A DNA stretch of 64,000 nt from NCBI GenBank assembly GCA_965178125.1, contig OZ237752.1, positions 682,001 to 746,000 of the forward strand. Reading direction: 5' to 3'. A program made the position numbers and the translations under genes. This document shows, in pieces, positions 1 through 64,000 of this stretch (its first letter is position 1; each line of letters opens with the position of its first letter). A model generated the notes under the pieces. It had not been told where the DNA came from and searched no databases. It was given only the letters and a program-made list of their open reading frames with translations. The DNA comes from Bilabrum cf. latius. Lineage: Eukaryota.

Positions 1-3000
1 GCTGCCAGTCTACACGGCGAGGGTAAAGAGGACGAGGACGGACTGGCCACCGATGGTTCTCAAACCGCTGGTATTCTGGGATCGGGTGGTACCGCAGCCC
101 ATGGCGAACTGCACGGCGTGACAGGTTCCCCGAGCATGGAGTCGGAAGCTGCCGGTGTCGGTGAGAGCAAGACTGGAGACGGCGATACAGACTAGGGTGG
201 CCTCAGCAGCGCATCTGCAGCTGCTGCTGTTGCCCTCGTGGATGCGGTGCAAGATTCTGCTGCAGACGCTTCAACCCCCAGATAGGGGAGCGCTGCAGCT
301 GCTGCCATGCAGTTCTTGCCTGGCTGCCAACAAGATAGATCCATGGCAGAGCAGGCTGCGGTGGCGCTTGCGATCGGAAGGTCTGGAGCGATGTCGGGGG
401 GCCCTGGGCTCGAGGACTGGGCGCTATCGGTCGAACTACAGGCTGGCCACAACACTGGGACAAGCAGTGGCGTTTTCCCCACCTCGGAATAGTCAGTGAC
501 AGACGCATGCAGGGACTGCCTAATGGCTTGCCTTCCTGGTGCGGATGCGAGATCGCCGTCCAGTAGAAGCTGTGTGCCTGCTGTGTTGGCTGTCTGCGGC
601 CCAACTATTGCCCCCCTTCTCACCGATGCATCCGTCTGCGAAAGAATTATCGGCGCTGCTACAGCCGCAGTATCGCATGACTGTGGTGGTGAAACCGGCA
701 GCGCGGTCGCCTCCAGCGGCACTCTTGCCCTTGTACAAGCCGCCCTCCAGGCGATTACGTCCGCGGTTAGTCCTATCAACACGGGTGCGCCTGTTCAGTA
801 GAAGGCCGTAGTATTCGCCAATGCACTTGCAATTGCGCTCGGGAGTGCTGTCCTTGCTGCCAACGGTGATGACTCTAGCACGGCTTCCGCATTGGCAGCA
901 ATACCCATGAGCGGGTCGACAGGCATGATCGTGGCCGTGGACGAGGAAGGCACAAACGGACATACCAGCACCGCAAAGTATTTTGCCTTGGCACTAGAGA
1001 TTACAACATGCATTCTTGCCAGCGCGATTCGCAGTGACCCATCAGATGGCGCGGTGTCAGGATTCCCGGCAGTTCCATTGTGCGCCATTGTATGCGCGTC
1101 TGCCGTTGCTTCTTGGCCGAGTGGCAGCGCTCGACACCATACTGCTGCCAGAGTATGTATCTCGGGCTGCAACTCGTTGCGGCGGGCTGGCCTTGCGACC
1201 GCTGTAGGCAAATGCTGCCCTGGTATGGCTTCACAGGCAGCGCTGGCGCTGCTTTCAACTGTTTTGCGGGACGGCTGCAGCGATCTGATGCGCAGCGGAT
1301 CAGCCAGCGAGCTGCTAGTTGGGACTGCGATTGAGCTCCTCAGGGGTATCGCATCCGCACAAGACTTCTTCCCAGTTTCATCTGAAGTTGATCCTGCTGT
1401 CCTGCGTGCGAAGTGGTACACTGCAGCTGTTGATACCCTTACTGCGCTGCCTTCACTGGACAAGGGAGAGCACGAGGCGGTTGTCCATGCGCGCACCCTC
1501 GCAGAACTGGTCCAAACGGCTCCTAAAAGTGCGCCTGAAAGTGCTTCAGCTGCGAAGGCAGCGGCATTCATGGTGTTGTTGAGCCTCTCGGGCGACTCTA
1601 CCCTAGAGCACCTGGGTTGGAAGCTAGCATCTGGAGCGCTTGGAAGCACCGTGTCACCTGCCGCCGTTCAGGTCGGCGCGAGCGCACGGGCAACTCTACG
1701 CCTGGATGGAACGCCAAGCCATCCGCTTGCATCAGCATCCCCAGAGCTGATGGAGGAGCTGCAATCGGCCGTAGCTCGCGCCGTTTCCATGGCCGAGTCG
1801 AGTGCCCGGGCCTCTGTGAATGCCCTCACGGAGGGTTCGGACAGCTCCGATGACGACGAGGACGAGCACGATACAACTGGCAGGTACTCTGCAAGAAATT
1901 CGGTGAGACGCTCGAGCTCAGCTGCGCTGATTACCAAGCTATCTGGTTCCCGTGGCTGGTAGGACAGCTCGAAGCTTCCTGGCGCAGCGAGCGTCTTGGC
2001 TGCATTTGTGAGATCAGTTGCTGGCATGCGCGAGTTTGTTGGACCGATGCACGTGCCTTCGTGGTCTAAGCTCGGCAGCCCCCCGCTCTTCGAGCGACAA
2101 CGTATTCAAGCTAGCGATGATTCCGAGTCCGGTGCTATCCGTTCCATTGAAAACAACTGGCTGGCCGGACTTGCACTGAGCATTGCTACGGAACCACCCA
2201 TCCTGCTGGCTTCTACATCCGCTGCAGAAGGCACTGCAAGCGTTCAAGTTTATTTGCACAAGATCCCGCTCGCCATTCGCAACGCCTGCAGCATTCCACT
2301 GCACCCCGTCGAAGGCACCAGCAGAGCTGCTGCCATGTCCGGGGGCATGCTGCGTGTCGGCGGTCTCCTTCGCTTTGTGCTGTGCGCAGAATCCCCAAGT
2401 GACGACGCTGGTATTGTATCGAGCCTGCGGGTTTTGTGCGCGGGCCAAGCCTTCGGTCTTGAGGAGGAGGAGACAGCTTGCCTTTCGATGCAAACGAGCA
2501 TGCGGGCAGGCTGCAGAGCGGCAACTCTGGCAATGATACCGGTCGGTGCTGAGCTCAGTGATGACAAGCTGCTGCCAATGGTTGCAGGGCACGGCAGGTC
2601 AGGGGGCGCCTCTACAAGGGGCAGCACTCATGACAGTATTGATTCGGATCTTCCCAGGGCGAGGTTTCAAGGCTCGGCCGTGTCGCTTGCAGGGCTCTCC
2701 CTAGCTTCGGGCGCCGAGGTAGCGGCGGCTGGTCGGAAGCAAGGTGGATGTGAGACCCCCTTCCGATTTGCAGTGCGCGTGGCAAGGCCTGACGATGGCG
2801 CCCTCCCGGCCCTAGCAGATTCAGCAGCTGATTGCGCGGATGGGCCCACTGGACTTGAGGCTGCCAGTGCAGAGCTGAACCCTGGAGGTGGAATGGGCGT
2901 GCAACGCTCGGTAATTTTGTTTGCCTCGAGACAAGAAAATTATTTCCGACGGAAACGAGCGGGGCCTAGCTCTGGTTCACCGGGAGCTGGGGACTACTCG

Positions 3001-6000
3001 GGGCACTTGGGCAGGCAATAGGTTTCGGTCGATGTGGACGGATCGATTGAGGCCACTGTAAATCTGGTCCGGGCTACGCTAAAAAAGCATCAAAGCCACT
3101 AGAGGCAGCTCGCCGAGAACGCAGCTGCCATGGGCAGCGCTCCCAGATCGGTGCACTCGGACGCAATGATTGCAGCATCGTGCCGCGAGATCGCTGCCCA
3201 GCTTCGGAGGGAGGGCAGCGCGGTGATTCACAGGGGAAGCCCCAAGGCATGCCGCGACATGGCAATTCGGCTGACAATGAGCGGACTAAGGATCGTTATT
3301 GCGCCTACCTTTACTGCACCCAGCTCACAATTCAACGCGAGGAGCCCTGCTATGATGCACGAGGACTCCGTAGAGCCGAAAATCCCTGCAAACTACCTGT
3401 GGGTGGATCAGTCCAGTGCCCATGCCACAATGTAGCTGGTTGAATTGCTAGGGGGCTGGCTTCCAGCCGATCAGTAGGCTATATTTGCTGAATCGATGCT
3501 GAACGTGGTCGAGTCGTGTCCATTGGGCAAGAGTGCATGCAGCAGAGGTGTCGTGTCTCTGCTTGGTAGGCTCTTGGGTGCTCGCGGCCACGGCTTCCAG
3601 CCCCGCATCGGGGACCCCGTGATGGTAAGGGCTCCTGCTTTCGTTCCGTCGACTGGTGCCGCAACAAATTCCAACCCGGATGGCTGCTGGCCCGCCCTAC
3701 TGGTTGATTTCGACGTTCCAGCCGCGGCAGCGTGCGTTTCGTTGCAACCGGGAGGAGTGGGCGTTTGGGTGCCAGCAGGCTCCTTGTCTGCGATTACCCC
3801 AGCGGATCCACCGTCGCCTCAGTTTGGAGCCCTGGTAGCTGCTCGTCGTCTTCTCTTCAGCTCACACGCCGTGGCTGGTACGAAACTGGCGTAGGCTTGG
3901 ATCGCAGAGGCGCTCAAGACCCTTGATTCTCGCGTGTCGGCCGAAGGAGGGCAGCCAGCCTCCTATTCGTTCTTCTCAGATGACGCAAGCGTTCTCAAGT
4001 CAGAGGGTGCTGCCACGCATATCATGGACACGTCGCTTACGAAGGTGCGGCTTGCGCAAGTGGCTGACGTGCTCGCAGCCATGGCTGAAACAGCTGCGCG
4101 AAGCAGCGACTCTCCATCGCTATCCATCTCATCAGTGCTGCAGGAGTCGGTAGCTCGCAAGCCTGCTGCATGGAACAGTCTTCTTGCTAACGCTGCGGCA
4201 TCCACTGCAGCGAGTGTCGTTGCTGCTGATTTGGAGCTCATAGCGATGCACGGCCCACCCAATGCTGGGTTGGGCGCATGCCCGCCAATCATACAGCAGT
4301 CGCGCCACTAGCGAATTCAAGTCGCGATCGACGATGCTCACCAACCTGCATACTCGTATGGCAGATCGCACCCTCTTCGGCAGGTTTTGCCTCTGCCAAC
4401 TAACCCGCTCGCTGGTCACGGCACGGCTGGCCCTGTCACTCACGACTCCTCTGGCGAAGTTGCGCATCGCATTTAGCAGGCACTATAGGGCCGGGCCAAA
4501 CTAAGCTAGTCTGGAATCGATGGGCCGCAGTCAAACGGGTCATCTGGCTAGCTTCAGACTTATATTGCGAGCTTGGTTGCCGCGCATGCAGCCGTGCAGC
4601 GCAGTGCAATGTCCACACAATGCTAGCATTGGGCTTCACAGGCGGGCTCGCCAGGCAATCCGCAGCGGGTCGACAACGTTAACAACGCCGTGCCAACGGA
4701 TGCCAACGGGCCTCGCCAATGGCTGGCTGCTCTGGAAGAATCGGTCGTTTGGGCGTCCTCTGCTGCATCACTGCCTATGCTTGGTTACATGCCGGCCGAG
4801 CTACGTGTTGAGATAGAGAATGCTTTGGCGTCTGCAGCAAGGGACGGAGATCATACAGCTGAAGCGAATGAAGGTGCTGCGGCCGCTGGTAAGAGTGCGT
4901 TCTTGACACGCAAGCGGGCAGCGCGCCGGAATGCGCCGCCAAACGTACACTTTCGGGGCGAGTCGCTTGGCGTGGATGCACCGCGAGCGTGGCAAATGGT
5001 GGTCGAAGGTGCTGTCGGTCGGCGTTCCAGCTCCGGCAACGTTTCGCTCGTCCCCTGGGCTGCCTTTGCTGGCTTTCACCACCGTGACGAAGACGTTCGT
5101 AGGGGAGAAAAGGTCCCACCAAACTCCAGATCTACCGAACCAGTGGTGCTGTCCACGGCTCTGCCTGTGCCCGTATACGAGACCATTCGAAGCTCGATCG
5201 TTGACCACGATGCGTCTGTCCAATCGGACAAAGAGGCCATTGACAGCTCGCCGACGGTGTAGGAGCCGAGCGCAGTGTACTATTTCGAGGTGGTCGCGGT
5301 GCCCAACCTGCCTCAGGTAGAGGCAGCCGTTGAACGGCAGAAGCAACACAGGCAGCAAAGGGCCATTAGCTCGAGGTCAGGCAGGCCGCAGCCGTTGCAG
5401 TCCCACGAGGCACAGCCTAGAGACGTGCCTGATGTCAAGGTCGGCCTCTGGAGCGAACAGGCCGCTGCACGGAGCAGGCACGGCCTCGAGTGGGGCGAGG
5501 GCTCCGTCGCGTACAACGTTACGACGGGTCAGAAGGAGCGGTTTGTTCCTCTCGCAAGGTGCTCTTCGGCCGCAGGCAAGGCCGGTAAGTCTGCCATATC
5601 TGAGAGCGTTGAGGAGGACGTGGCCTGGGACCAGTCATTCAATGCGTCTGCGGTCACCTCGCTTGCCGACTGCCTGCAGGCCCTAGGCAATGCTGTGCGT
5701 GTACTGGCTCGACTAACCACAAGCCCTCAGTAGGCCGGGAAGGGCGATTCTAGAGCGGCCGCGGGTGCTGCAGCTAGCGGTGTAGGGGAGAGCAAGGAGC
5801 AGGAAGGAGGCGGCGGCAGCAAGGAGGCAGACTCTGACCTGGACGACGGAGGAGATGAAGAGGTCCGGTAGGCAGGGCCAAGCGCCACAGCCGAGGAGAT
5901 AGCCACTGCAGAAAACGCCGTGAAGAAGCTACGCGTAAGGCTGCAGGCGCTAATGCGTGGGATAGGTGAGGGCAGCGAGCCGGTGGAGCCGCTAGGAAAC

Positions 6001-9000
6001 AAGCGGATATGTCTGGAGCTCGGCATGCCTCTCGACGTGAAGGACTTGGAGGGACGAATTATGTGGCGACCAGCTGAAATCATCGGCCTCAAGTTCCAGG
6101 ACGGCCAGGTGATTGGAATGGCCGACAAAGGCGGGAAGCTGGCCTACGATGCTGCACCTCGCGGGCACGTCGAAGAGCCAACAGGGGCCGTCTCACAGGT
6201 TCTTGTGCACTTCAACGGTTGGGAGTCGAACTGGGACGAATGGATCGATGTCTAGGCGTGTGAAGAGAAGCATGCACCTCCTTCTGTTAACTCTTCGAGT
6301 GAATTAGCGTAGATCGACAGGGGTACTGGCTCGGTGGCATCACGAGGCATAGGATCCCCCGTCCGGAGGCGCCCCGATGGGTCCCTTGTGCGTGGCTCTT
6401 CAGGGTCCGCGCTTGGCACGCCACCCCGTCCAGAGACGCATGGCCCTCCGTCACGAAGCACGCCCCGCATTGCGGTGCGTCGCCCGACCGAGGCAGAGCT
6501 GGCCCAGGAGCAGAGGCGACAGCGCAGGCGGCCGCAGCTCAGCGCCGCCCAGGAGCGCCGCATCCTGACGATGCTGCAGCCCATGGGCATCGATTCGTCT
6601 GCCTTGCGCGAAATACTGTCGCAGGGGCGCGAGAGCCAGACGAGAAGGGGCCCCATGGGCGAGATGCTCAGCCGCTTGATTTAGCACGTAGTCGGTGACC
6701 TGGGAGGGGAGGACCTCAAGTCAGAGGAATCGAAGGTTAGGCTCGCGCCCAGGGGGTCCAACACGCCTACCGGGCCCCGGTCCGGCTTCATGAGACGCGA
6801 GCCGTACGGCATTCGCAGGCGGCTCCTGAACCTACCCGGGGAGCACGGGAGCTTGGATGACCTAGTGGCTTACCTGCGGAGGCGTCGTCACAAGTCCACA
6901 GCTCAAGGTATGCACTCACCTGGATTCGTGGATAGTAGTGGTATGATGAACGGCGAAGAGGACGAGGACGAGGATGACGAGGACGAGTGGGAGCGTGACT
7001 CTCCCGCGGCAGGTGACTCTGGCCGGCCAGGGAGCAGGAGCAGCAGCGTCCGCAGCAAGTCGTTGCGATTCGGCGACGGCCTCCTCAGCACAAAATCGCC
7101 TGCTCGCCTAGCACTGCAGGGCGTCCCAAATAGTCCCCCTGTTGGTGAAGACGGGATGGAGCGGCTTGAGGCGCTGCCGCCTGGGGCCACCGTGATTGGT
7201 TGCGCCTGGGATGTGCTTCGTGGGGAGGTTCGGTACGCTGTAGACGGCATGGATCAAGGCGTGGCGTTCCGGGGCGTCTACGGCAGGCTGCACCCAGCCG
7301 TGTCCGTGACCAATTCAATGGTATCAGTGTCTCTTAACACAGGGCAAGGGCCGTTCTACTTCGCCCCACCAGTGCGCCGCGAGACAGGCGATGGACCCAG
7401 CCCCCGTTCCGTGCCTCGCCAGAGCCTCGGATCTCCCGCAGACGCCTCCGCGAGGAGATCATCCCGATCCTCTTCGGGCACGGGCGCAAGCATGGGGCTT
7501 GATGCCATCACCCCGCCGTCAGAAATGTCAGCTACTGACGCGAGGCTGCAGGATCTGCCCCTGGTCATGCGAGACGCCGTGTCAGACATTTTGTCCCTGC
7601 ACGAACGCGCCACGACGAGCCTGCTGCACAGGGTGTCTGGCAGGGCAAAAGAGGTGTCGAGGATAAGGAGAGGTACAAGGTCATTGCGTCGTATTGCAGC
7701 ATCAGACACGGCTCGGAGGAGAAACCTTGCCATGGAGCTGCAAGAATTCCTGCCAGGCGTGGGCATGGGTCACCTAATGCGGCTGCTGCGGCAGTGCAAC
7801 GACAACAAGCAGCACGCGGCCGAAGTGGCCCTGCACCGCGCCGAGCAGATGATGGGCCCGGACTTGGAAGCGGAAGTGAGGGGAGAGGAGGACAAGCAGC
7901 ACATCGTCGCGACGTTTGGCCCTGGTGTCGAAGGAGGCTCTGGTGCTACTGGGGTCCGTTACCTGCACCACAACTCGGGCGCGTTCGGCGGGCGCCCGCC
8001 CCGTTTCCCCGGCCTGAACGGTGTGCTTGTTATAGCCGACCCACCCATGCTAGAGCAGCCGATGCAGAACGCTAGCTAGGCAGAGGGCAACATCGTGCTG
8101 TGCCACAGGGGTCGCTGCACCTTCCTTGACAAAGCCAGGCACGCCCAAGCAGCGGGAGCTGCTGCCATCATCATCGCAAGCGATGACGACACCGTGTTCA
8201 TACCTGATGCTGGCGATGACCCAGCGGATGACGTCACCATACCGGTGCTGATGGTAAGCCGCCCGGAGGCAGAGGTACTCGAGGCTGCAAAGCGCACCAT
8301 TTAGGGGCGGGGAAGAGAAGGACCGATGCTACAAATTTCCATCGGGCTGTATCCGCCAGACGGGACCGTGGAGACTGGCGAGGCAGGAGATGCAGCTGCC
8401 ACGGGTCGGACCCGGGCGAGGACGGGCTCATCTGTTGCAGGCTCTCGGGTCGATGACGAGTGCGATACAGCGGAGGAGGCTGAGGGCGACGCGGTGTGCG
8501 GTCCCGGCCCGTGCGTGCTGTGGTCAGAAGCCAGAGCCGCCGACTTGAGAGCGATTGCATCGCGCCTGCGCCAGGGCAGCGCAAAGGAAGCCCATACGAG
8601 GTTTTCAGCTGGAGCATCGTCACCTGATAGCAGGGTTCTGTCTGCCGCTAGCTATGATGTTCCGCTTAAGGGCGTAGCCACCGCCGACTCGGTGATGCGA
8701 ACTGGGCTGAGGAGGCGGTGGTCAAGTAGGCCGACGCTGAAGGACCTTGGACTGGTGCTACCGCCTGGGCCGGACTACTTTGCAACCAAGGGTGGCATGC
8801 TGCTGCGAGCACCACCAAACACGCTGTGGTCGCAGGACGCGGATGGAATGTCGATTGGAGACACGCGCGTCAAAGTGGTCGGCCCTGGTTACATCCCACC
8901 CGGACAGGTCCCAGAGCGGCTGGGTGCCGACTACCTACACTCGTCACCCGGCGTCATGCTCCGGTCGACGGATGCAATTCTCAAAGCGGCAAATCCTTCT

Positions 9001-25714: not shown

Positions 25715-25956
25715 CTGGGACCCGGCCAAGCGTCACAGCAAAAAAAATGACGAATGCAGATTTAGTTGAGTGCAGTTCATGCAGTGTAAATTTCCCCCCC
25801 CAAGGGCATAGATCTAGCGCCAACCGTACCCGAACACGATAAATTGGGTGAGCTTTCATTTGTAATTGTGTCAGGAATTGGTAATCGGCCAGACTCCCTA
25901 GCGTGCAGACTTCTTCCATTCAAGTTGCTTTGCGATCCTTCGCAGGTGAAAATCGA

Positions 25957-52911: not shown

Positions 52912-53669
52912 CTTAAGGCTTCGTGGGACCGAATCGCGAAGTGCAACTCCCGCAGAAAACGATGGGCTCGGTCTTCACGTGGTTGCGTTGTGTTTGGAGA
53001 TATCAGATTCAACATTTTGATTCCGAATATATGTAGCGTGCATTGAATAAAAAGTGTATTACTGGCGAAAGCTTGCAAACGCATCTCGACCTCGCAGAAG
53101 CTAAGGAAACGGTCATTTTTGCAGTGAGCCGGCAAAACTCGCTCTCATATGGATCTATTTGGGGATGATGATTTCGACGAAGGTGAGACAAGCACCTGTA
53201 AACCAGTGTGCAAACAAGCACCATAGGGCTGCAACTGCATCGCATCTAGTCCTGCATCTCGACAGCAGGGATTTCTGAGCCAAATCCTGTGGGATTATTA
53301 AGCATATTGTGTTTCTAAGTATAGTCTCTTGGCTGCAACTTACCATGCCTTGTCTTGCATAGAGGCGATATGCCTAGAATTTGGCCTCTTTGCAGTCGGT
53401 GGGAGCTAGTTTATGGACCGTGAAAGCCTAGAATCACTCTTTTGGGTAAATTTTATCACCTTTAACACTAGCAGGTGTAATATTTGGGATCAACTCCATC
53501 TACAAAGACCTCAGCCATAGCTCTACACCAGGACTGGTAAGTTGGGTCGCTGGCACAAGGATCCTCTCCTGTGGTGCCGTCTGACGTGCAATGACCAAAC
53601 ACTTCGGTGAAACAAGCCTTAGCATGTACGATAATCATAGAGTCCATTCAGTAAGCCCAAATTTCGCAG
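52912..53669. promoter_or_regulatory. AT-richer divergent intergenic region shared by the SPX and MYB genes
   Basis: Head-to-head arrangement. Contains a GARP-type AGATTC core at 53005-53010 and a probable intron (GTAAGT near 53537 to CGCAG at 53669) at the 5' end of the MYB gene. Confidence 0.4.
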
Positions 53670-53792
53670 CATGGTGGTGGGATCAACACATCAGAGCTGG
53701 AGCGCACTATTGATGCTGCTGGCGAGCACCAGTCTGAATTCGGCGCAGATCACCTGCGCGATGGAACCCTGACGCCCCCAGATGACCACGGA

Positions 53793-56700
53793 ATGCAAGG
53801 CGAGGATTCCAACCCAGCCATCCCCATGCACCCCGTGGCCATGGGGGAGCAGCCGCAGCTGCAAGGCGGCAGCCAGGGTGCCATGCAGCCCTAGGGCGTG
53901 GTTGCTGTCAGCACAGGGCACGAGATGCCAATAGGTAGCTCTTCGTCCATGGTCCCGTCTTCGGCCTCTTACGCCCAGGCCGTGCCCGCTTCTATGCCTC
54001 TCGCCAGCAGTGGCCATCACGGGCACCAGCACCAGCACCAGCAGCAGCACCAGCAGCAGCACCAGCACCAGCAGCAGCAGTACATGCAGCCAATGCATCT
54101 AGATGGTTTACCGCCGCTTCCTACATCATTGAGCGGATTCGTGGGTGAGGATCCGATGGTTGGTCTGCAGCAGCAGCAATAGCAGCAGCAGCAGTCGCGC
54201 GGCATGCGCCAGAGCCGTTCCAACTAGACGCTCGGTGCTGCGGCTGCAATCCTCGGGATGTCTGAGCTGCTGCAGCAGTCTCACAGCCAGCCCCACGCTT
54301 CGGCCTCCACCTCCTCGTCCTCCTCCTTGTCCGCTTCGGTGGCCTTGACCCAGGGTCAGCAGGGTCAGCCGTTGTTCCAGGCATCGTCAGGGAGTGCAGG
54401 TCCCGCGGGTCTCCTCGCCCATGGGCTGCTTGGGCCAGGCTTGGGCATCGCGGCAAGCACCGCGAGCACCCGATTGCGCCAGGCAGAGGAGGCTACAATC
54501 AACGTGATTAGCGGCCAGGGCACTGGAGATGGTACGAGTGGCGGGAGCGGTGGCGGGGCCGGGGGCAGAAGCAGCGGCCGGCGCGGTGCTGCCAGCAGGC
54601 GCAAGTCAGGGGGGAGGGGAGACGAGGGGTCTGGAGGGGGCAGGGCATCGAGCAGGAAGCGAAGGTTCCTTTGGGACGATCTCCTGCATCGTAGGTTCGT
54701 CGGTGCGATCTTCGATTTTGGCACGCGGCACGCCACTCCCAAGGCTCTCTTCCAGCTGATGCAGCCGGCCCCCTCCCACATGACCTCCGATCACATCAAG
54801 AGCCACCTTCAAAAGTACAGGGCGAACTACGGGAGGTCCAGGGACGCCTTCTTGCTCGAGTACGAGCGAGCGCTGAGGGAGTCGAGGGCGAGGGCGCAAG
54901 AGATCGAGCTGAGGACAGGGGTGACGCCCTTCCCGCCGGGTTTTAGCACCTTCCCGGTGCAGATGCCACCGCACATGCAAAGTGGGGCACAGCCGGCGCA
55001 CAATATGGCAGGTGACCTGCCCGCCTCCGTGCGCGCCACCTTGGAGAAGAGCAAGTCAGGTCCCAACGAGGGAGATTACGGGGTGCAGGCCATCCTGCAG
55101 GGAGGGGCGAAGAAGGGAGCCTCCCAGGGACTAGAGCCACTCACAGTGCAGGATTCCGTGGGACTAAGTGCGATGGGCCGGCAGCAGCAGCAGCAGTCGA
55201 TGGGCAGCTCTGACGATGCTGGAACTTTAGGGAGCAGGTCACGCAGGGGCCCTTCGAGCGCCGCATCGGGGAGGAACACCGCAAGTACAGCTGGTGGCAA
55301 AGGCAAGAGCAGCGGCGTAGGAGGCCCCTCTGTACTGGACCGCACGGGGCAGACAGACCTGCGAGCCCCGGCGCAATCTGCACTTGCTCTGCACTCTGCA
55401 GACGTGCACAGCCGGGCCCTGCACGACCCAGGTGTGCCCCTTGCAGATGCGTGGCAAAGCCTGCAGGGCGGGCTAGGGCCCGCTGAGACCGCTGTGGGTG
55501 CGGTGGACCACGCGTTGGGCGAGTTCATGAAGGCTTCCTCAGAGCAGGGCGGGGCAGGATCAACAGCTGCGGCGGCAGCGGCTGCCATGAAAGCCAGGCA
55601 GGTTGCTGCGATGGCGCAGGCCCGGGTGAAGGAACTGCTGCACCGCATTGCTGCCGCTGCCGACGATCTGGAGGAGGCCACTCGCCGTGCAATCGCCATG
55701 CAGCTGCCCGACGGTGCCGTGGCGCCCTTCCCGCCCCACCTGTACTGCGACCCACTCAGAGCCTCTAGGCTGGCGCAGGAGGACCTGTCCGACGTGGTGC
55801 CCAGGCTTGATGCGGCTGCACTCGCGGGCATATACGGGAACGATTCGCTGCCTGGGGCCAATGAAGAGGGGCAGCGGATTCGCAGCAGCCTTGCTGAGCT
55901 GCCCAGGTCCGTGGCCTGTGAGAGGGCTGGTTCGCAGTCGGGGGCGGTGGGTGCCGGATGGGGCCGGTCGGGCGCGGCGATTCGTGGTGACTTGGCATCG
56001 GCGCAATCTGCAGCCAGGCTTGGCGCCCGCGCGTCAGCAGAAGCAGGGTTGGGGACTCTGCCCATGCTGGGTGCCCTCCCGACCGCCTCGGGTGTCCCTG
56101 CCCTGTCGGCTCCGCCGCCGGGCTCCAACGTGTCTGCCAACGCATCGAGGAGTGCGATCTCTGGATCCGTGGGGACAAGCATGTCTTCCATTAGCGTTGG
56201 CACGTCGACGGCGTCCGGTGGGCAGCAGCAGCAGCAGGCGGGGGTGAGCCCCACGGCGGTGTACGAGGCAGGCAGGATGAGGGATGCTGCCAGGGCTGCC
56301 GTCCCACCGCAGTTCCAGCAGGACTGGCAGCGTCCTGGGGGGCCTTCGAGCGGCAACCCAGAGCAGGCAGCCAATGCAGCCAGGAAGGCGAGTGCCAGGA
56401 TCGGGAGCAAGCGGGCCCGCTCGTTGGAGGGCAAGGCGCAGGCGCAGGGTGGCGGCACCGCGATGCACGGGGACGCGGGGGCGAGAGGCGGTGGTGAGTC
56501 GCCCTAGCACCAGCAAGGCAGCTAGTCGCAGACCAGGCCGCGCGGTGAGTCGCAAGGGACTCTCAAGCTGCCCAACCCGCAGGAGCGCACGGCCGGGTCT
56601 GGCGCAGTCGGGAGCGCCTCGAGCGCAGATGGCACCAGAGCAGGCGTTGCGGACACGCGAGTCACCGTACCAGGGGGGTCACAGGGCAGGGCAGCGAAGA

Positions 56701-58247
56701 AGAGGAAGACGGAGAGCGGCGGCGCGGCAGGGCAGCAGGAGCTGCTCGCCGCCACTGACGGAGGAGAGAGCGTGGCCTCTGACGGCGCGCCGCTCCCGTT
56801 GCATCCCGACGTGCTTGAGGGACTGCAGGGTGCCAGCGATCTGCCGCTGGAAGAATTGTCGAAGCGGATGGCGCGCGCGAGGATGACCCACGCGGTCATT
56901 CGGCAGAGGGCGGAAGGCCAGTTTGTCCAGTACGGCGGCGCGGCGCCCGCGTTCACAGGAGCCGAGGCACCAGACGAAAGGGCTCTGCAGGCGGGCGGCT
57001 TGCAACAGGGCGCTGCTGGGAGCGGCGACAACCCCCTGGGTCACCTCCAGGGGCCCGATCGGGGCCCCAGCTCAGTGGACATGTCTTCTGGAGCAAGTGT
57101 GGCGTCCCGCGAGGGCGCAGAGTCCCAGACACGCCGCGGGGGGCTGGGCCTGGATATGGACGACTCCTCCCAGTCGATGCCATTCGCGACCACCACTGCC
57201 TCCTCCTCTTCCTCCGGGCCGTCGTCTTCCTCTATCCCCTCATAGTCATAGTCGGGACCGTCATCGATGCAGCAGGCCCCGCTGATTTCAGGTGTTGGCG
57301 GGGCAGACGGCCAGGGAACAAGCGGGCCCATCGGGCTGCACAGCCAGGTCGCAGCGGAAGTGCTGCGGCACGTGCAATCGCAAGAACACCACGCAAATGC
57401 TGGCAATGGCGCTGGCAATGGCTCGGCCAGAGGCCAGGACCCGTCGGGGGCCTCGTCTAGGACGGGCAGCGAGCATGGCTCGGCAGCAAGCGGCGCAGTG
57501 CGTGCAACGGCGTCGGTGTCCAACACACTCATGTCTGCCGGCAGCGGCGGCATTCGAGCTGGCGGCAGGGCGCGGGCGCTCTCAATCGGGTCTGACGTGC
57601 TGGGCGATTCGTCGAGCGGACACTACCACCTCGCGGAGCAGTACGCCCCTGGCAGCCCCGTGGCCATGGGAGGCCCCGAGGGGCGTGTGGGCGGGGAGGA
57701 CTAGGGGTCAGGTGAGAGGCACCTGCAGCACCAGCACGATGAATCGCGTCCGGAGGCCCCTCCATCCCCCGTGACCTTGATGCAGGAGTCGGCGAAGAAC
57801 AGCGCGGCCGCAGGCTCTGCTTCAACCTCGCCCACTGAGAGCAGGACAGGAGGCCGGGGGCGGGGCTAGCTGCAGGGCAAAACCGGTCGCGGACGAGGGC
57901 GAGGGCGGGGCAGGGGCAGGGGTAGGGGTCGAGGGGCGAGCGGGCCGGCAGCCCCCGAGGTGCTGGACGACCTGACGGGTCTGGAAGGGTACGCGAAGAG
58001 CAGCGGTGCAGCGGACGAGGAGGAGGACGAAGCCGACCTGTTCGCTTGGCTCGGGTCGGACCCGCAGCCCGGCAGCACTGGCTACGACAAAGACGTGGCC
58101 TGGCAGCTCCCGGCTTAGCCACCGAGCAGGGCAGGCAGCTTGGAGCAGGCCCCCGGGGAGGAACCGGCGGGCCCCAGCGGCCACCAGACTGGCCCCCCCG
58201 CTGCTACTTCGGGCTTCGTGGGTGAGGATGACGATGAGGGTGATTGA
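53793..58247 (+). CDS. SHLQKYR-class MYB (GARP; PHR1/PSR1-like) transcription factor, ~1480 aa; 5' end uncertain (frame open from 53670)
   Basis: Domain RKRRFLWDDLLHRRFVGAIFDFGTRHATPKALFQLMQ...MTSDHIKSHLQKYR. Also polyQ/H tracts, an NLS-like AKKRK, a (GR)8 tract and acidic DEEEDEADLFAWL. Ten in-frame TAG; TGA at 58245. Confidence 0.85.
54024..54194 (+). repeat. CAG/CAC trinucleotide tracts encoding polyQ/H, including CAG CAG CAG CAA TAG CAG CAG CAG CAG
   Basis: Read directly at 54024-54080 and 54168-54194. Confidence 0.9.
57885..57935 (+). repeat. (Gly-Arg)8 coding repeat in the MYB protein tail
   Basis: ggt cgc gga cga ggg cga ggg cgg ggc agg ggc agg ggt agg ggt cga ggg. Mixed synonymous codons suggest the repeat is kept at the protein level. 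Confidence 0.8.
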
Positions 58248-58475: not shown

Positions 58476-60074
58476 TCACAGCTTGCCTAGCCAACCGCGC
58501 AGCTACGAAAGGGCAGATGGTGGAGCCCCAAGGCCCCCTTTAGCGCCCGCCGATGGCGCTCCAGCGTCCCGTCCAGCCACAGCAGCTGCGTAAACCAGGT
58601 GATGCGCAATCGCATACGGGCCTGGTAGGAACTGCACCGGGAATTCGTCTTCATCCGTTGTCTCAGCTTCGGGAGCACTAGCTCGGGTCCCAGCGCTCGC
58701 ACCGCCCCCTGCTTCTTTCTTCCCTTTTGATGGTGGAAGACTCGTGAGGGCTCGGCCTCTTTTCAAGGCACTCAGTGCATCAGCACATGACACCCATCTA
58801 GCGGTTTGCAGCTCGGCTTTGTCCACCGTGATGGTAGGCAAAGCGTGGGTCTTGCTGCTGCTGCCGACGCCGCCTGCTCCGGCCTCAGAATCGGATTTGG
58901 AATCCGGCAGCGCCACTGCAATGCAACCGAGCATGATTTGGCCGTAAGCACCGCGGGAGACGGGCCACGGCTGCGTCTGCAGGATGTGGACGGCGCCCAC
59001 GCGGACACCGGCCTCCTCCAGCACTTCTCTCCTAACTCCCTCTTCCACTGTTTCGCAGGGGTCTAAAAATCCGGCGAGGCATGAATACATGCCCGGTGGG
59101 AATGACTTCTGACGACCCAGAAGCAGATGCTAGCCGTCTGGTGATAGCACCGCCGAGATAACAACAGGGTCTGTCCTAGGGTAGTGCGAGGCACCGCACC
59201 CCTTTGCGGCTACCACCGGCTTACCATCGTCTTCTATGGATGCGCCAAGACCCCCACTAGTAGCAGCAGAGGTGGTGCCATCGGGAGCATCTGGTTTCGC
59301 TGGATCCGGATGTCCCACGCACACTCGCTGCGTCCCGCCGTACCGAGAGGCTGTGCGACCGCCGCATTCGCTGCAAAACCCAGTTTTAGTATGCCACTAG
59401 AGCGTGGACCTGGCTGCGCCCATGAGCTGCAGCTCCTCGAGCGCATGTTGATGCTCATCGCCGTCGCTAGCATCGGCGGCTGCCGACATTTGCAGCATGA
59501 AATTCCTTGCTTGCACGGCACGCAGCTCGACGCTGCTCTTTGCCTACAGTCTGGACAAAATTTCCGATACACATGCTTTGGATGCCTCGCGCGATCTCCA
59601 CTTGACATCTGCGGCGAGGCCAGCACTGGTAGCTGCTGCACGGCGAATACTGGGAAGCCTTGACGCCTCCAGTGCAACCAAATATCCTCCATCAGTGGTA
59701 TCGGCACGGCTCTCTTTTCCAGAAAGCTAACCCATTACTACAAAAGGGGCGGAATTGGGATCTAAGTCCTGCATGCTGGAACCATCGAGACTCTCGCGAA
59801 TTGAAGACATCGAAAATCTGGCCATTCCCTTAGATTTTGCTTCGCATACAGGAGCCAGGTCAGCAAATACAACAACACGAGTCTCTGGATGATCCAAAGC
59901 ATATTGCGTAAAGTCTACGCTGTGGCGACCTGAAGAAGCACCAGCGAGTTTGTCAAGGCTTCGCCTGCTGCCAATGGCAGCTGCAAAAGGAACGCCAGCG
60001 CTGGTGTCCAGGCGCGATGCTGACATGGAAAATTGTCGTAGAACTCGCAGTCCGTGCTGCCCGGTACGAATCAT
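58476..60074 (-). CDS. NudC/NUDT12/NUDT13-family NADH pyrophosphatase (Nudix hydrolase with zinc ribbon)
   Basis: Motifs ARSTL*WHTKTGFCSECG, HYPRTDPVVI, LLLGRQKSFPPGMYSCLAGF, Nudix box ETVEEGVRREVLEEAGV, TQPWP, PGPYAIAHHL. Five in-frame TAG. Likely ATG 60074 with presequence-like MIRTGQHGLRVLRQFSMS. Ends ...WLGKL then TGA. Confidence 0.9.
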
Positions 60075-60368
60075 TCGCAGTAGCGCGTAGCTCGGGTGCT
60101 GACGTGCCACTGGTTCCGGCTCCGGGCTGCCGTCGGTCGGTGGCACAGCATGCAGCATGCTGGCGTGCGTTCCCGTCGCTGTGTGGGGTGATGAGACGCC
60201 ATTGCAGGTTAATGTCAATGGAATGAATTGCAGCGTGTCATGCTTGTGCCTGCAGCCGTACTGAGTTTGTGGGGCGCACAATCATGATGTGGCAAGGACA
60301 GCGTCGGCACACTCATCAGCCAGTGAGCCATCATGCCGCCAAGAGCCGCCAAGCAGTTCCATCCGTAA

Positions 60369-61685
60369 TCACTGCCTGTCATCGTCGCCACCCTCCCCCG
60401 CAGCAGGCGGCCCGTGCACCCCCGTGTACCTCCCATGGAACGGCCCCACCCCAGGCTTGAGGAACCCCCTGTCGTCCGGATTCTCGTCGATCGAGGCCGT
60501 CACGACGTCAATTTCGGGAAAATCAACACTGCGAATCATCAACAAGCAACAATGAAAGCTTACGATTTGGGCGTGGGTGCCTATGAGCCATTCAATGCTC
60601 GCTGTGCATCAACCAGGTAAAGGCAATGCGGCAAGGATCGTAGCGGATAGGATACCAATGATGCTGCTCTTGAGGCGAGGCACCGCAGGCCAGCCAATCA
60701 CAGCCCAACTCAGCATCACCTCACAGCGTATCGGCAACCTGCTCGCTGACAGTCACTGCCACGAGCTTGATGTTGCCCTGCTCCACTCCCCTGCTTTCCA
60801 GGGCACGGATCGTGGCGCGGAGCCCCTCGGGGTTCGCCACGACAGCGTCAATCAGGATGCAAGTGCGGTCGGCGATGTCTTCCGGGGTGTCAATCTTCAC
60901 CACCTTGCCCTACTGGCCCTCATGCAGCACCGTCGCGATGGCTATTCCCGGCATGAGCCGCTCCAGCGCCGCGCGGAGGAAGCTGCGCAGTACGACGGTG
61001 TGCACGGCAATTTTCAGTTCAAATAATTGATAGCAAGGGACGTCAAATCTCCGAAGAGTGGCCAGGCATTGCAATGTATTGGCCGTTCCTAGCCACGATT
61101 GATATCGCAACTTCGGTACACCGGTGGTTGGAACTCTAACCTGCTATCTTTGGTAATTACCACCCCAATAAACTTGTCTTCGTCTTCCAATTCTACGCCC
61201 TGATACTTATTCCCCTCCGGGGTCGTGACAACCACTTCTGATGTATCCATCGAGGCCAGGGCAGTTTCACACAGGATTGTGATCAGCCTATCGGCGAAAT
61301 GCACAAATTTACGCTCTGCAAGGTACACGAACCAGCGTATCCGTTAATAAAGCAGTACTGGCAATGTAAAGATGGCGATATACTGGCAAAAATCTCATTG
61401 CTCACGAGGGGTAGACGCGTCTCTTAATTTAGTCATGAGCAGCTGAATCTGGACATTCTCCGGCTCAAGTACGTCGATGTTTTGGTGCTTTCGCTTCCAT
61501 ATTTCAGCTTTCAATCCATCACCTATCACGCTGCAAGACTCATACGCATCGTCGGTGCTTGATTTGCGGCGGAACCAGTCGCACCGATGGTGGCTGCCAT
61601 CCCAGTACCTCGACGCAACAGACAAAGCCAGGGGTACCGAGGCAATCGCACCAAACGCTGCTCTCCGACAAGCACGGCGGTACAT
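60369..61685 (-). CDS. Uracil phosphoribosyltransferase-like protein, divergent; exons 61685-61406, 61315-61141, 60982-60725, 60528-60369
   Basis: Spliced translation includes LMTKLRDASTPQRKFVHFADRLITILCETALA...VVVTTPEGNKYQG...PEDIADRTCILIDAVVA...RGVEQGNI...FPEIDVVTASIDENPDDRGFLKPGVGPFHGRY. Three phase-compatible GT-AG introns, one in-frame TAG (60912), stop TGA. Confidence 0.8.
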
Positions 61686-61874: not shown

Positions 61875-64000
61875 TCACGGCATGTACCCAAGTAGCATGC
61901 CGGCACCGAGTCCGAGCCGCATGCTCCTCGAAGCATCCGCTTGCCCAAACCCCCACAGCACCGGCGGCACCCTCTCACGAGAGGCCTCGAGCACCTGCTC
62001 CCAGGGACCGAGCAGATCCCTCTCCGGGTCTGCATACGCCCAAACATCGCACAGGGCGTGCACAAACCCCGTCACAAACACCCCGCAATCGCACCCGTTG
62101 AGCTGCCGAGGCAGCGCCACCGAGCGCAACCTACTTCCGGTTTGCTCATAAGATCGCCTCGTTGCACGTCGCGACATTGCAGTGCCGTGCACCTCCCGCG
62201 GGGCTTCCTTCGATCCGACGGCGCCTTGCCTTGCGACGGACTCTCTCGCCACCGCAGACGCGAACTCCCGCTCGATCAGGGGGGCCCGCACCCGCCCCCG
62301 CCTCCGCAGCAGCAGCGCTGATTCGTTTCCCGGATTGTCGCGAGTGTTGCTGCTGCTCCTGCCTGCAGTGACCCGCCTGCCCTCCGACCCAACGGCTCCG
62401 CCTGCCAGCGACAGCAGAGACGAGGAAGAGGAGGAGGAGCCTGCAGGAACAGGGCCATTGCCGCCGTGTCCACTGGAACCAGCTGCAACCGCAGCAGCAG
62501 CAGGTGTACCGCTACCGTTGCTTTCAGACGTCTAGGATGGGTCGCTACGGTAGTGCAGCTTCAGGCGGCTGGCAGGTGTGTCCCGTGGCAGAGGCAGCGA
62601 CCCTGCCCAGCGATAGGACATCTTCTTCCACTGCGATGCCTCCATTGGCATGACCGTTCCCGTCGTGTCTTTCGCCACCTTCTTGTCGTGCCACTCGTCA
62701 CATGCCCACCGAATCAGCACGTCCCTGACCCCCCCGTCAGAGCCGCCCAACGAGTCCAGGAAGCAAACGGTGCGGGCCTGCATGTCTAGCACCGCGCACA
62801 CCCAATGCGTATCAGCCTGATTGATAGGGAACACGACCCTTCGCAGTGCAAAGACGTCCGTCGCCTTGGTCCAGCGCTGTACCCTAGAGTAGTCGTAGCC
62901 ATTCCTGCCACCCGTGAGCGCGGTCATGAAGAAGCTGCGGAACACGAAGGCGCCCCCTCGGCGCCGCGCATCCGCCATTGCGGCCTCTGAGGGCTGCGGC
63001 AGCGGCTGCTGATGTTGCTGCTGTTGCTGCTGCTACGCATCCCTGGGCTTCCACCTCGCAGCACCAGCCCCTGTCGTAGACTCGCTATACTCGGTTGCAG
63101 CCCCCTCCGGCACCTTGCTTGCTCCTTGTTCCCTGCCCGGATCCCCGCACATGGCGGCAGCAGCCGGGGTGCTCTGCGCGTCATCCGCTCCAGCGGTGCG
63201 CCGAGCCGCCGGCACGTCCGCAGATGAGCTTCCGCTGCTGTCCCTGGCAGTGTGCCTGGGTCTAAGCAGCGGCGGTGCGTACCACGTACCGTCCACCCGC
63301 CTGGCGAGCTCTTCCAGCTGCATTGCATTGCGGTCCGCAGCGACGAGGGCTCCAAAGATCACGGCTGGGTCGGTGAGCCACTTGCCGGGCAGCAGCCTGC
63401 CATAATCGACGAGGTGGGGGGTGCAGTGCCTGCTGGCACACGCCCTCGCTTTCTTGCCCGCGTCGCCTTGCCGCATCATGTCACCCACTCGGGCTAGCAC
63501 CGCCTGGTTCGCTGGCACCGCGGCTTTCCGTGCGGCAGACAGCACTCCGAGCTTGCGGAGTCGGCGCTTGATGGCTTCAACAACAACTTGTCTGCCGATC
63601 AGCGGGCCAATGTTTTCCGTGCGCGCGAGGGCAAATGCCTCTGCGGCTTGATCGCCAGCTCTCGAGGAAGCTTCGAGTGGGGTTGCAGTTCTGCTCCTCT
63701 TGCGGAGCATCGACAGCAGCCCCCCGCGATGAGTTGCTGTGGACTGTACCAAACTTGCACCCTGGCCTACTTTCGCTAGGGACGGCACTTGGCTGGGAGT
63801 CTGTTGCCGGAATCCGGTCGCTGCAGCCCCGACGGCGTGTTTCATCGCGCTCGTAGCCGCTGCAAGGCCCTATGGGGAGCCCGATCGAGCTACAAATCTT
63901 GTACTTAATCTCAGCAAGGAGTTCGACACATTTGCTTTCACTGAGCTGCCTGGTAGAGTTGGGGGTGTGTACTGTCTTCGTGATTCAAGTAGTTGCTCCG
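61875..64000 (-). CDS. Ulp1/SENP (peptidase C48) SUMO-type protease, 5' partial
   Basis: Motifs LLPGKWLTD, FRSFFMTAL...YSRVQRWTKATDVF, FPINQADTHWVCAVLD...FLDSL and PRQLNGCDCGVFV give His, Asp and Gln/Cys catalytic residues. Three track ORFs are joined by TAG and the frame is open to the window edge. Stop TGA TGA. Confidence 0.88.

What the first reader, a model, noticed from the sequence alone, without database searches (positions are those of the whole stretch)
1..64000. Nuclear genetic-code variant: TAG is a sense codon in all 15 genes
Seen: consecutive ORFs share a frame and are separated only by TAG. The clearest case is 1-16179, with 40 TAG and no TAA/TGA over 5392 codons. About 120 in-frame TAG occur window-wide (hand count). 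They interrupt conserved genes (HIBCH, Nup205, BK channel, SPX, NudC-type Nudix, SENP) with no frameshifts. Established: nuclear codes that separate UAG from UAA are rare. I recall UAG=Gln in the fornicate Iotanema spirale and some phyllopharyngean ciliates, and UAG=Leu in an uncultured rhizarian. Inference: this GC-rich, non-ciliate-looking genome may be an independent, possibly undescribed reassignment.
Basis: partly seen in the sequence, partly recalled or inferred. Interest (0 to 1): 0.96.

Follow-up and report, generated by a model that had tools for sequence, protein, structure and literature searches.

The report
UAG codes glutamine in unnamed eukaryote
This stretch of nuclear DNA comes from an unnamed, GC-rich microbial eukaryote that reads the stop codon UAG as glutamine and keeps UAA and UGA as stops, a rare type of genetic-code change seen before only in a few unrelated protists.

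Summary
With TAG read as sense, 1-16179 is one frame of 5392 codons with 40 TAG and no internal TAA or TGA. Across 16 ORF segments there are 119 in-frame TAG, 0 TAA and 0 TGA in 19,133 codons. Making TAA or TGA sense instead gives no such frames.

The genes are eukaryotic and nuclear: HECT ligase, Nup192/205, BK channel, HIBCH, SPX, NUDT12-like Nudix, Ulp1, UPRTase.

TAG means glutamine. In a 96%-identical relative, 3 of our Nup205 TAG sites are Gln, and its predicted fragments end at two others. A 12-kb metagenome contig from a more distant relative (L001, about 60-70% identity) also has in-frame TAG. Of 29 aligned TAG sites between L001 and the window, 17 face Gln. Gln beats the next residue by 37 ln units; Ser and Leu trail by more than 70.

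Contigs of a second run keep all 40 TAG, and one skips three GT..AG introns. That restores a frame that still needs TAG as sense.

The code matches NCBI table 15, known from Iotanema and some ciliates. The lineage is unnamed and unplaced, and five literature searches found no description. tRNA and eRF1 could not be examined.

The parts
1..16179 (+). Giant HECT ubiquitin ligase gene (5' end cut by the window). 5392 codons, 40 in-frame TAG, ends in TAA.
   Evidence: Pfam SPRY, PA and HECT. Run X5 contigs cover 1-6984 and 6955-16236 with 0 other letters.
16237..16780 (.). Intergenic dispersed repeat.
   Evidence: Mean word depth 740-974 against 13.4 in the flanks in run X1; many short contigs with mismatches.
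16694..19303 (-). Membrane-protein-like gene with three introns. Stop is the TAA at 16909. The likely ATG at 19303 was picked by eye.
   Evidence: Joining the exons as in the X5 contig gives a 754-codon frame only if TAG is sense.
18832..18916 (-). Intron 3 (85 nt, GT..AG). The exon before it ends in an in-frame TAG (18919-18917).
   Evidence: X5 contig skips it; X1 contig is continuous across it. Sequence and frame.
18957..19041 (-). Intron 2 (85 nt, GT..AG). Its removal creates a TAG codon split TA|G across the junction (19043-19042 | 18956).
19133..19224 (-). Intron 1 (92 nt, GT..AG).
19686..23510 (-). 1274-codon ORF with 7 TAG. Weak COG3_C match, below the Pfam cut-off.
23510..25714 (+). 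734-codon ORF with 3 TAG. No Pfam family.
25885..29106 (+). 1073-codon ORF with 2 TAG. Glycoside-hydrolase-like by language-model features only. Its ortholog in L001 (71% identity) has 3 TAG, 2 of them opposite our CAG.
29427..30788 (-). 3-hydroxyisobutyryl-CoA hydrolase (HIBCH) gene with 3 TAG.
   Evidence: Pfam ECH_2, E 2e-97. PDB human HIBCH, E 1e-70. L001 ortholog at 64% identity.
30476..32851 (+). 791-codon ORF with 5 TAG. No family found. Its 5' part overlaps HIBCH on the other strand, so the true start lies further in.
33324..36602 (+). 1092-codon ORF with 15 TAG. No family found. One TAG lies 6 codons before the TGA.
37540..45171 (+). Nup192/205 nucleoporin gene in two ORF segments (37540-38790 and 38794-45171), with 11 TAG. 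The decisive sites are 39406-39408, 40687-40689 and 40981-40983 (Gln in relatives) and 39085-39087 and 41998-42000 (where the close relative's predicted fragments end).
   Evidence: Pfam Nup192..
45400..50342 (-). BK/Slo-type potassium channel gene in two ORF segments (49584-50342 and 45400-49638), with 6 TAG.
   Evidence: Pfam. PDB BK channels, E 1e-31. Homologues.
50754..52634 (-). SPX-domain gene with 3 TAG. One TAG lies 4 codons before the TGA. The upstream part probably holds an intron (judged by eye).
53655..58247 (+). 1530-codon low-complexity, Gln-rich ORF with 10 TAG. One TAG sits inside a CAG/CAA run (QQQQ-TAG-QQQQ).
58476..60281 (-). NUDT12/NudC-like NADH pyrophosphatase gene with 5 TAG. 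One TAG lies 9 codons before the TGA.
   Evidence: Pfam NUDIX. PDB NUDT12, E 1e-39..
60721..61343 (-). Uracil phosphoribosyltransferase-like gene in at least two exon ORFs. One TAG lies inside the matched domain stretch.
   Evidence: Pfam UPRTase: 29.5 bits (above the cut-off of 27) and 25.7 bits (below it).
61875..63998 (-). Ulp1/SENP-type protease gene (5' end cut by the window), with 3 TAG.
   Evidence: Pfam Peptidase_C48.

Best explanation
The window is nuclear DNA of a GC-rich, intron-poor microbial eukaryote whose cytosolic ribosomes read UAG as glutamine. UAA and UGA remain the only terminators. This is the pattern of NCBI table 15.

Shown here: TAG is in frame about once per 160 codons in every gene. 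It makes up about 13% of Gln codons. Between relatives it exchanges freely with CAG and CAA. At least one more distant relative (L001) shares the code.

Inferred, not shown: decoding is by a tRNA-Gln with anticodon CUA, one base away from the CUG anticodon, and eRF1 has lost its grip on UAG. This is what PMC5304391 predicts for this kind of code.
For: 1. TAG is sense. There are 119 in-frame TAG against 0 TAA and 0 TGA in 19,133 codons; the off-frame rates are 0.31% for TAA and 1.45% for TGA. Only TAG-as-sense gives giant frames. Pfam and PDB domains continue across TAG.

2. The TAG are not an assembly error. Contigs of runs X1, X5, X6 and X8 (four studies) match the window with 0 other letters at the TAG sites they cover. 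The only difference inside the HECT gene is at 11312, which is not in a TAG codon.

3. The TAG are neither spliced out nor edited in X5. X5 contigs carry all 40 TAG of 1-16179. Another X5 contig skips three 85-92-nt GT..AG segments of the neighbouring gene. Joining those exons gives one 754-codon frame that needs TAG as sense, including a TAG made by the splice itself.

4. TAG means Gln: fragments of relatives. At our Nup205 TAG sites 205, 632 and 730, the 96%-identical P0130 has Q at 3 of 3 sites. P0131 and P0134 (the L001 organism) have Q at 3 of 3 aligned sites. P0138 has Q at its 1 aligned site. P0135 has A at site 98. In total, 7 of 8 aligned residues are Q. P0132 and P0133 end exactly before our TAG sites 98 and 1069, so the gene caller treated TAG as a stop. 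The Q in P0130 are therefore presumably ordinary Gln codons.

5. TAG means Gln: window against L001. Four orthologous ORF pairs give 29 aligned TAG sites, and 17 face Gln. Of 19 L001 TAG, 14 face window CAG (10) or CAA (4). Of 10 window TAG, 3 face L001 CAG. Gln is only 3.2% of aligned residues, and Gln-to-Gln conservation in the same alignments is 46%. Likelihood from the alignment's own substitution counts ranks Gln first, Lys and Glu at -37.3 ln units, Leu at -72.3 and Ser at -73.3.

6. The relative uses the same code. L001 has frames of 1229, 872, 808 and 438 codons only if TAG is sense (11, 7, 3 and 4 TAG). The three of these frames that are complete at the 3' end stop at TGA; the 1229-codon frame runs off the contig.

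7. Context. Gln is the most enriched neighbour of TAG, at 1.76 times background, close to Gln's own self-enrichment of 1.96.
Against: Only 3 of the window's own 10 TAG sites aligned to L001 face Gln. The others face L (2), P (2), R, M and E.

Against distant homologues, the TAG sites fall in variable columns that do not single out Gln. In NUDT12, Q is 5 of 114 and 2 of 114 in the two columns. In HIBCH the site faces M, K, R, R. In the BK channel the four sites face K, M, P, D.

The neighbour-profile likelihood put Met 0.3 ln units ahead of Gln.

The kind of run X5 is not on record; the tool guesses 'RNA? (probably DNA)'. Persistence of TAG in mRNA therefore rests on the spliced contig, not on a declared RNA library.

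No tRNA gene lies in the window or in L001, and no eRF1 gene is available, so the mechanism is untested.

Three of the window's 16 ORF segments have a TAG within 9 codons of the final stop, so some use of TAG as a terminator cannot be excluded.
Confidence: 0.9

Rival explanations
1. UAG has two meanings: glutamine inside genes, and still a terminator near the 3' end of some mRNAs. This would be context-dependent termination, as described for Condylostoma and Blastocrithidia.
For: Three of the window's 16 ORF segments carry a TAG 4, 6 and 9 codons before the final TGA (SPX gene, 33324 gene, NUDT12-like gene). L001:3845-6463 ends TAG-TGA. At 0.62% TAG per codon, about one such case would be expected in that many genes. 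The observed fraction is close to the usual share of TAG among stops in standard-code genomes (that share is recalled, not measured here).
Against: The same pattern is expected if old TAG stops simply became readable, extending each protein to the next TAA or TGA. No gene in the window needs TAG as its terminator. The HECT and HIBCH proteins end at TAA or TGA where their families normally end. Numbers are small.
Confidence: 0.15
2. TAG is sense but codes another residue: Ser as in Scotinosphaera, Leu as in the rhizarian exLh, or Glu, Tyr or Lys as in some ciliates.
For: Several TAG sit in contexts that would fit other residues: TCA-TAG-TCA-TAG-TCG in a Ser-rich run, TAC-TAG-TAG-TAC in a Tyr-rich spot, and a TAG in the middle of a hydrophobic stretch of the 16694-19303 gene. 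Seven of the 10 window TAG aligned to L001 face non-Gln residues.
Against: Likelihood over 29 aligned sites puts Lys and Glu at -37.3, Leu at -72.3, Ser at -73.3 and Tyr at -77.5 ln units relative to Gln. In relatives' fragments, 7 of 8 residues at our Nup205 TAG sites are Q.
Confidence: 0.04
3. The TAG are not translated. They would be artefacts: sequencing or assembly errors, pseudogenes, unrecognised introns, or U-to-C editing of the mRNA.
For: Some of the 119 TAG probably do lie in introns or before true start codons, because the ORFs are stop-to-stop frames. The upstream part of the SPX ORF is one example (judged by eye).
Against: Decay or introns would bring TAA and TGA too, and there are none in 19,133 codons. 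Four runs from four studies give the same letters. X5 contigs that lack the introns keep the TAG unchanged. A relative about 60-70% identical has its own, different set of in-frame TAG.
Confidence: 0.01

Closest known systems
Iotanema spirale (Fornicata): UAG=Gln, with UAA and UGA as stops (PMC5304391, passages read; also named in PMC11687900)
   Same: The same code pattern in a nuclear genome outside the ciliates. The predicted mechanism is the same: a tRNA-Gln(CUA) derived from the CUG isoacceptor, plus an altered eRF1.
   Different: Iotanema is an anaerobic metamonad known from a transcriptome. This genome encodes HIBCH and a NUDT12-like enzyme, and its best named matches are Platysulcus, Thecamonas, Phytophthora and Mucochytrium, not metamonads. 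Relatedness was not tested with a phylogeny.
Ciliates with UAG-only reassignment to Gln: two phyllopharyngean lineages and Protocruzia tuzeti (PMC11687900, passages read)
   Same: UAG=Gln while UAA stays a stop.
   Different: This window is 55-64% GC, a contiguous 64-kb stretch with long genes and 85-92-nt introns. No ciliate appears among its named best hits. 'Ciliate genomes look otherwise' is my recollection, not a test.
Scotinosphaera (Ulvophyceae): UAG=Ser, with TAA and TGA as stops (PMC8271138, passages read)
   Same: UAG alone is reassigned in a non-ciliate nuclear genome.
   Different: The residue is Ser there. Here Ser scores -73.3 ln units relative to Gln.
Rhizarian exLh: UAG=Leu (PMC5304391, passages read)
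   Same: UAG alone is reassigned. There were 384 in-frame UAG in 71 transcripts, and stops were only UAA or UGA. That is the same kind of evidence as here.
   Different: The residue is Leu there. Here Leu scores -72.3 ln units relative to Gln.
UAR=Gln codes (NCBI table 6: many ciliates, some ulvophytes, hexamitids, Amoeboaphelidium; listed in PMC11687900)
   Same: A stop codon becomes Gln by the same one-base anticodon step.
   Different: In those codes UAA is sense too. Here in-frame TAA is 0 of 19,133 codons, and TAA ends 5 of the 16 ORF segments.

Membership tests
UAG=Gln nuclear code with UAA/UGA stops (NCBI table 15 pattern) | UAG occurs in frame within protein-coding genes | tested here: met
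   119 in-frame TAG in 19,133 codons, 40 of them in one 5392-codon frame. Domains continue across them.
UAG=Gln nuclear code with UAA/UGA stops (NCBI table 15 pattern) | UAG corresponds to glutamine in homologues | tested here: met
   17 of 29 aligned TAG sites face Gln, and Gln leads by 37.3 ln units. 7 of 8 residues at our Nup205 TAG sites in relatives' fragments are Q.
UAG=Gln nuclear code with UAA/UGA stops (NCBI table 15 pattern) | UAA and UGA are not read as sense and end the genes | tested here: met
   0 in-frame TAA and 0 in-frame TGA in 19,133 codons. ORF ends are 11 TGA and 5 TAA. Three TAG-sense frames of L001 that are complete at the 3' end, and its HIBCH ORF, end in TGA.
UAG=Gln nuclear code with UAA/UGA stops (NCBI table 15 pattern) | A tRNA-Gln with anticodon CUA | not testable with these tools
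   No tRNA gene in the window or in L001. No whole genome is held.
UAG=Gln nuclear code with UAA/UGA stops (NCBI table 15 pattern) | eRF1 N-domain changes that weaken UAG recognition | not testable with these tools
   eRF1 is not in the window, and no genome is held.
UAG=Ser code (Scotinosphaera type) | UAG aligns with conserved Ser | tested here: not met
   0 of 29 aligned TAG sites face Ser; -73.3 ln units relative to Gln.
UAG=Leu code (rhizarian exLh type) | UAG aligns with conserved Leu | tested here: not met
   2 of 29 aligned TAG sites face Leu; -72.3 ln units relative to Gln.
UAR=Gln code (NCBI table 6) | UAA is also in frame as a sense codon | tested here: not met
   0 in-frame TAA in 19,133 codons. 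Reading TAA as sense lengthens no frame.
Ambiguous stop/sense codes (Condylostoma, Blastocrithidia type) | The reassigned codon still terminates at gene ends | tested here: inconclusive
   A TAG lies 4, 6 and 9 codons before the final stop in 3 of 16 segments, and L001 has a TAG-TGA ending. No data on where translation actually ends.

The most novel reading that the evidence does not exclude
A previously unrecognised eukaryote clade uses UAG=Gln. It has at least three lineages: the window organism, a relative 96% identical in Nup205, and the L001 organism about 60% identical in Nup205 (58-71% across the four aligned ORF pairs). Two further fragments at 41-50% identity may belong to it. The clade sits outside ciliates and fornicates and may be near the base of the stramenopiles. 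This would be a further independent uncoupling of UAG from UAA in nuclear genomes, in a GC-rich genome. The excess of TAG just upstream of the final stop might be fossil TAG terminators, or a remaining terminator role for TAG.
Probability: 0.45. Interest if true: 0.8.

Novelty: new member of a known kind. Interest (0 to 1): 0.7.

Why it matters
Nuclear codes in which UAG and UAA mean different things are few. The 2024 discussion I read (PMC11687900) lists Iotanema, an uncultured rhizarian, Scotinosphaera, Protocruzia, one oligohymenophorean ciliate and some phyllopharyngean ciliates.

A new case would matter for three reasons:
- It would add an independent data point on how UAG escapes eRF1 while UAA does not. 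This one has long genomic contigs, several sequenced samples and at least one divergent relative.
- Because a genome assembly appears to exist, the tRNA-CUA and eRF1 changes could be read directly.
- Gene callers currently shred these genes. Nup205 of two relatives is stored in the protein databases as fragments that end at TAG sites. The lineage's proteins are therefore mis-annotated wherever it turns up.

Tried and rejected
Distant-homologue columns. These were meant to read the residue at TAG sites. NUDT12 (114 homologues, 2 TAG columns), HIBCH against PDB and BK channel (4 homologues plus 3 cluster mates) all put TAG in variable columns, so they gave no decision.

Giant HECT protein. Only 3 hits, all limited to the HECT domain, and no TAG site was covered.

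Neighbour-composition test. Gln is the most enriched neighbour, but the likelihood ranking was not decisive: Met 0.0, Gln -0.3, His -1.7.

Self-comparison of the window's proteins. No internal paralogues.

tRNA and RNA-family scans. No tRNA in the window or in L001. No Rfam family in the window.

Whole genome. None is held.

Collection scans. A metagenome scan with the HECT C-terminal half found no relative. A scan of prokaryote genome contigs with the Nup205 alignment found none.

Sequencing runs. No RNA holder is listed for the stretch. X5 and X6 are only guessed to be RNA. Parts without cover in X6 and X8 are not used as evidence.

PDB search with one UPRTase-like exon. No hit.

Earlier findings of this scan. 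Nothing on this genome, its look-alikes or its HIBCH. The one word match concerns UGA in another genome and did not bear on this report.

Naming the organism. Cluster look-ups gave no names for the close relatives. Named distant hits are mixed: Platysulcus, Thecamonas, Phytophthora, Mucochytrium, Cavostelium, Protostelium, Achlya. Placement therefore stays open.

Literature. Searches found no paper on a GC-rich non-ciliate UAG=Gln lineage. Supplementary files were not consulted; those of PMC5304391 and PMC11687900 could list further taxa.

Pyrrolysine or selenocysteine-type recoding was considered and dropped, because the sites are Gln in relatives.

Full report
OBSERVATION

Under the standard code the longest frame in the window is 1006 codons. 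With TAG read as sense, 1..16179 (+) becomes one frame of 5392 codons with 40 TAG, and thirteen more frames of 416-2125 codons appear. That long frame has no TGA, and its only TAA is the terminator. The other five frames of the same 16,179 bases carry 6-30 TAA and 52-131 TGA each.

Over 16 ORF segments (19,133 codons) there are 119 in-frame TAG, 0 TAA and 0 TGA. The other five frames of the same segments hold 294 TAA, 778 TAG and 1383 TGA in 95,601 codons. As a control, reading TAA as sense leaves the longest frame at 1006 codons, and reading TGA as sense gives at most 1063.

WHAT THE GENES ARE

Pfam finds the following:
- SPRY, PA and HECT in the giant ORF
- Nup192/205
- Slo-like RCK, BK_channel_a and ion-transport domains
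- ECH_2 (HIBCH)
- SPX
- NUDIX
- Peptidase_C48
- UPRTase
- a weak COG3_C match

PDB sequence matches agree: BK channels at E 1e-31, NUDT12 at E 1e-39 and human HIBCH at E 1e-70.

GC content is 55-64%. This is a eukaryotic nuclear region with at least 16 genes. It is intron-poor but not intron-free.

ARE THE TAG REAL, AND DO THEY REACH THE MESSAGE?

Eight runs from four studies hold the stretch. I laid four of them on 1-20000. The contig of X1 is continuous over 1-16404 and 16694-20000 with 0 other letters.

X5 has contigs over 1-6984 and 6955-16236 with 0 other letters, so all 40 TAG of the HECT gene are present. X5 also has one contig that covers 16694-18831 and then skips 18832-18916, about 18955-19039 (equally well 18957-19041) and 19133-19224. 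On the minus strand these segments read GT..AG and are 85, 85 and 92 nt long.

Joining the exons in that way gives a single 754-codon frame, but only if TAG is sense. One TAG closes exon 3, and one is created by the splice itself as TA|G. The simplest reading is that X5 holds spliced transcripts and that the TAG are neither removed nor edited. The caveat is that X5's library type is not on record and the tool's guess is 'RNA? (probably DNA)'. If X5 is DNA, it shows an intron-less copy instead.

The only base difference inside the HECT gene in any run is at 11312 in X6, and it is not in a TAG codon.

WHICH AMINO ACID?

Distant homologues did not help, because TAG sits in variable columns:
- NUDT12: G/H/A/S in one column and D/N/E in the other; Q is 5 and 2 of 114
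- HIBCH: M, K, R, R
- BK channel: K, M, P, D

The neighbourhood of TAG is enriched for Gln by 1.76 times, similar to Gln's own 1.96, but that test alone was not decisive.

The decisive result came from a full HMMER search with the first 1200 residues of the main Nup205 ORF. It found short predicted proteins from unnamed relatives. Aligned to our sequence, they show the following:
- P0130 (814 aa, 96% identical) has Q at our TAG sites 205, 632 and 730.
- P0131 and P0134 (59% and 53% identical) have Q at 205, 632 and 730.
- P0138 (41% identical) has Q at 632.
- P0135 (50% identical) has A at site 98.

P0132 and P0133 (96-97% identical) end exactly before our TAG sites 98 and 1069. P0133 and P0130 are each listed with a longest contig of 18,578 bases, so they probably come from one contig. 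The gene caller therefore stopped at TAG, which means the Q in P0130 are presumably ordinary Gln codons.

A SECOND ORGANISM WITH THE SAME CODE

P0131 led to L001, a 12,195-base metagenome contig with 56% GC. It too has long frames only if TAG is sense: 1229, 872, 808 and 438 codons with 11, 7, 3 and 4 TAG. The three of those frames that are complete at the 3' end stop at TGA; the 1229-codon frame runs off the contig.

It carries orthologues of four window ORFs in a similar order: the GH-like protein (71% identity), HIBCH (64%) and the two Nup205 segments (58% and 61%). Two window ORFs and one L001 ORF have no counterpart.

In these four alignments, 29 TAG sites are aligned to a sense codon:
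- Of 19 L001 TAG, 14 face window CAG (10) or CAA (4).
- Of 10 window TAG, 3 face L001 CAG.
- The remaining 12 face R, L, P and E (2 each) and K, M, H and D (1 each).
- No TAG position is shared between the two organisms.

Gln is 3.2% of the aligned residues, and Gln is conserved as Gln 46% of the time in the same alignments. So 17 of 29 (59%) is what a Gln codon would give. Using the alignments' own substitution counts, Gln is the best reading. Lys and Glu follow at -37.3 ln units, Leu at -72.3 and Ser at -73.3. TAG makes up about 13% of Gln codons in the window's ORFs.

HOW IT MOST LIKELY WORKS

Shown: UAG is translated as Gln, and UAA and UGA terminate.

Inferred from what is known of such codes (PMC5304391, passages read): a tRNA-Gln with anticodon CUA, one mutation away from the CUG isoacceptor, reads UAG but not UAA, and eRF1 has lost efficient recognition of UAG. 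Neither could be tested. No tRNA gene lies in the window or in L001, and no genome is held.

OPEN POINT

Three of the window's 16 segments have a TAG 4, 6 and 9 codons before the final TGA, and one L001 ORF ends TAG-TGA. That is more than the roughly one case expected by chance. They may be former TAG terminators that are now read through to the next stop. Alternatively, TAG may still terminate in some contexts. I cannot tell which.

WHO IS IT?

The close relatives are unnamed Logan, ENA and JGI predictions. Named hits are distant and mixed:
- BK channel: Platysulcus tardus at 267 bits, well ahead of Thecamonas (136) and Phytophthora (114), behind an unnamed protein at 411 bits that has no TAG break in 1079 residues.
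- HECT domain: Mucochytrium quahogii.
- Nup205: Cavostelium, Protostelium and Achlya at weak E-values.

Two genes lean towards deep stramenopiles, which is a lead and no more. Nothing points to ciliates or metamonads.

COMPARISON WITH WHAT IS KNOWN

The code pattern is known. UAG=Gln with UAA as a stop is reported for Iotanema spirale, Protocruzia tuzeti and two phyllopharyngean ciliate lineages. UAG=Leu is reported for a rhizarian and UAG=Ser for Scotinosphaera (PMC11687900, PMC5304391 and PMC8271138; passages read). Ser and Leu are excluded here, and so is the UAR=Gln code, because TAA is never in frame.

Five literature searches found no description of a GC-rich non-ciliate lineage with this code. 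Supplementary files were not seen.

VERDICT

The residue is now assigned as glutamine. I file it as a new member of a known kind of code variant, carried by an unnamed clade of at least three lineages. Confidence in 'UAG=Gln, UAA/UGA stop' is 0.9. That the lineage is an independent and undescribed case is plausible (about 0.45) but not shown.

Noticed in passing
window 16237-16780: Intergenic repeat. Mean word depth is 740-974 in DNA-like run X1 against 13.4 in the flanks, and it attracts many short contigs with mismatches in all four runs. It looks like a dispersed high-copy element. Rfam finds nothing there.
   Followed up: partly
window 50754-52634 (-), 33324-36602 (+), 58476-60281 (-); L001 3845-6463: A TAG lies 4, 6 and 9 codons before the final TGA in three window genes. 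One L001 ORF ends TAG-TGA. These may be fossil TAG terminators, or a sign that TAG still terminates in some contexts.
   Followed up: partly
window 41671-41673 (Nup205 codon 960, TGG): The 96%-identical relative's fragment P0130 ends at residue 959, and the next fragment P0133 starts at 972. The relative therefore has a stop-like codon, or another break, near a Trp that is conserved between the window and L001. The cause is unknown, because its DNA could not be fetched.
   Followed up: no
window 25885-45171 and L001 1-12195: Partial synteny between the two organisms: GH-like gene, HIBCH on the opposite strand, then Nup205. The window has two extra ORFs in between (30476-32851 and 33324-36602). 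L001 has a different 872-codon ORF there (3845-6463).
   Followed up: partly
window 25885-29106: A large protein with no Pfam family. Its nearest ESM-Atlas clusters are bacterial hypothetical proteins, with GDE_C and MGH1-like glycoside hydrolases scoring 0.89-0.93. It is conserved at 71% identity in L001.
   Followed up: partly
window vs L001, all 29 aligned TAG sites: No TAG position is shared between the two relatives. Three of five Nup205 TAG sites also differ between the window and its 96%-identical relative. TAG and CAG/CAA therefore seem to turn over quickly, like synonymous codons.
   Followed up: yes
window 58476-58520 (C-terminus of the NUDT12-like gene): If the last TAG is read through, the protein ends in Gly-Lys-Leu. 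That resembles the C-terminal peroxisomal targeting tripeptide known for NUDT12-type enzymes; the consensus is recalled, not tested.
   Followed up: no
window 6950-6990: A short acidic low-complexity stretch (GAG/GAC-rich) in the HECT gene. It draws many unrelated contigs and false joints in all runs, so depth spikes to 24-144 there.
   Followed up: no
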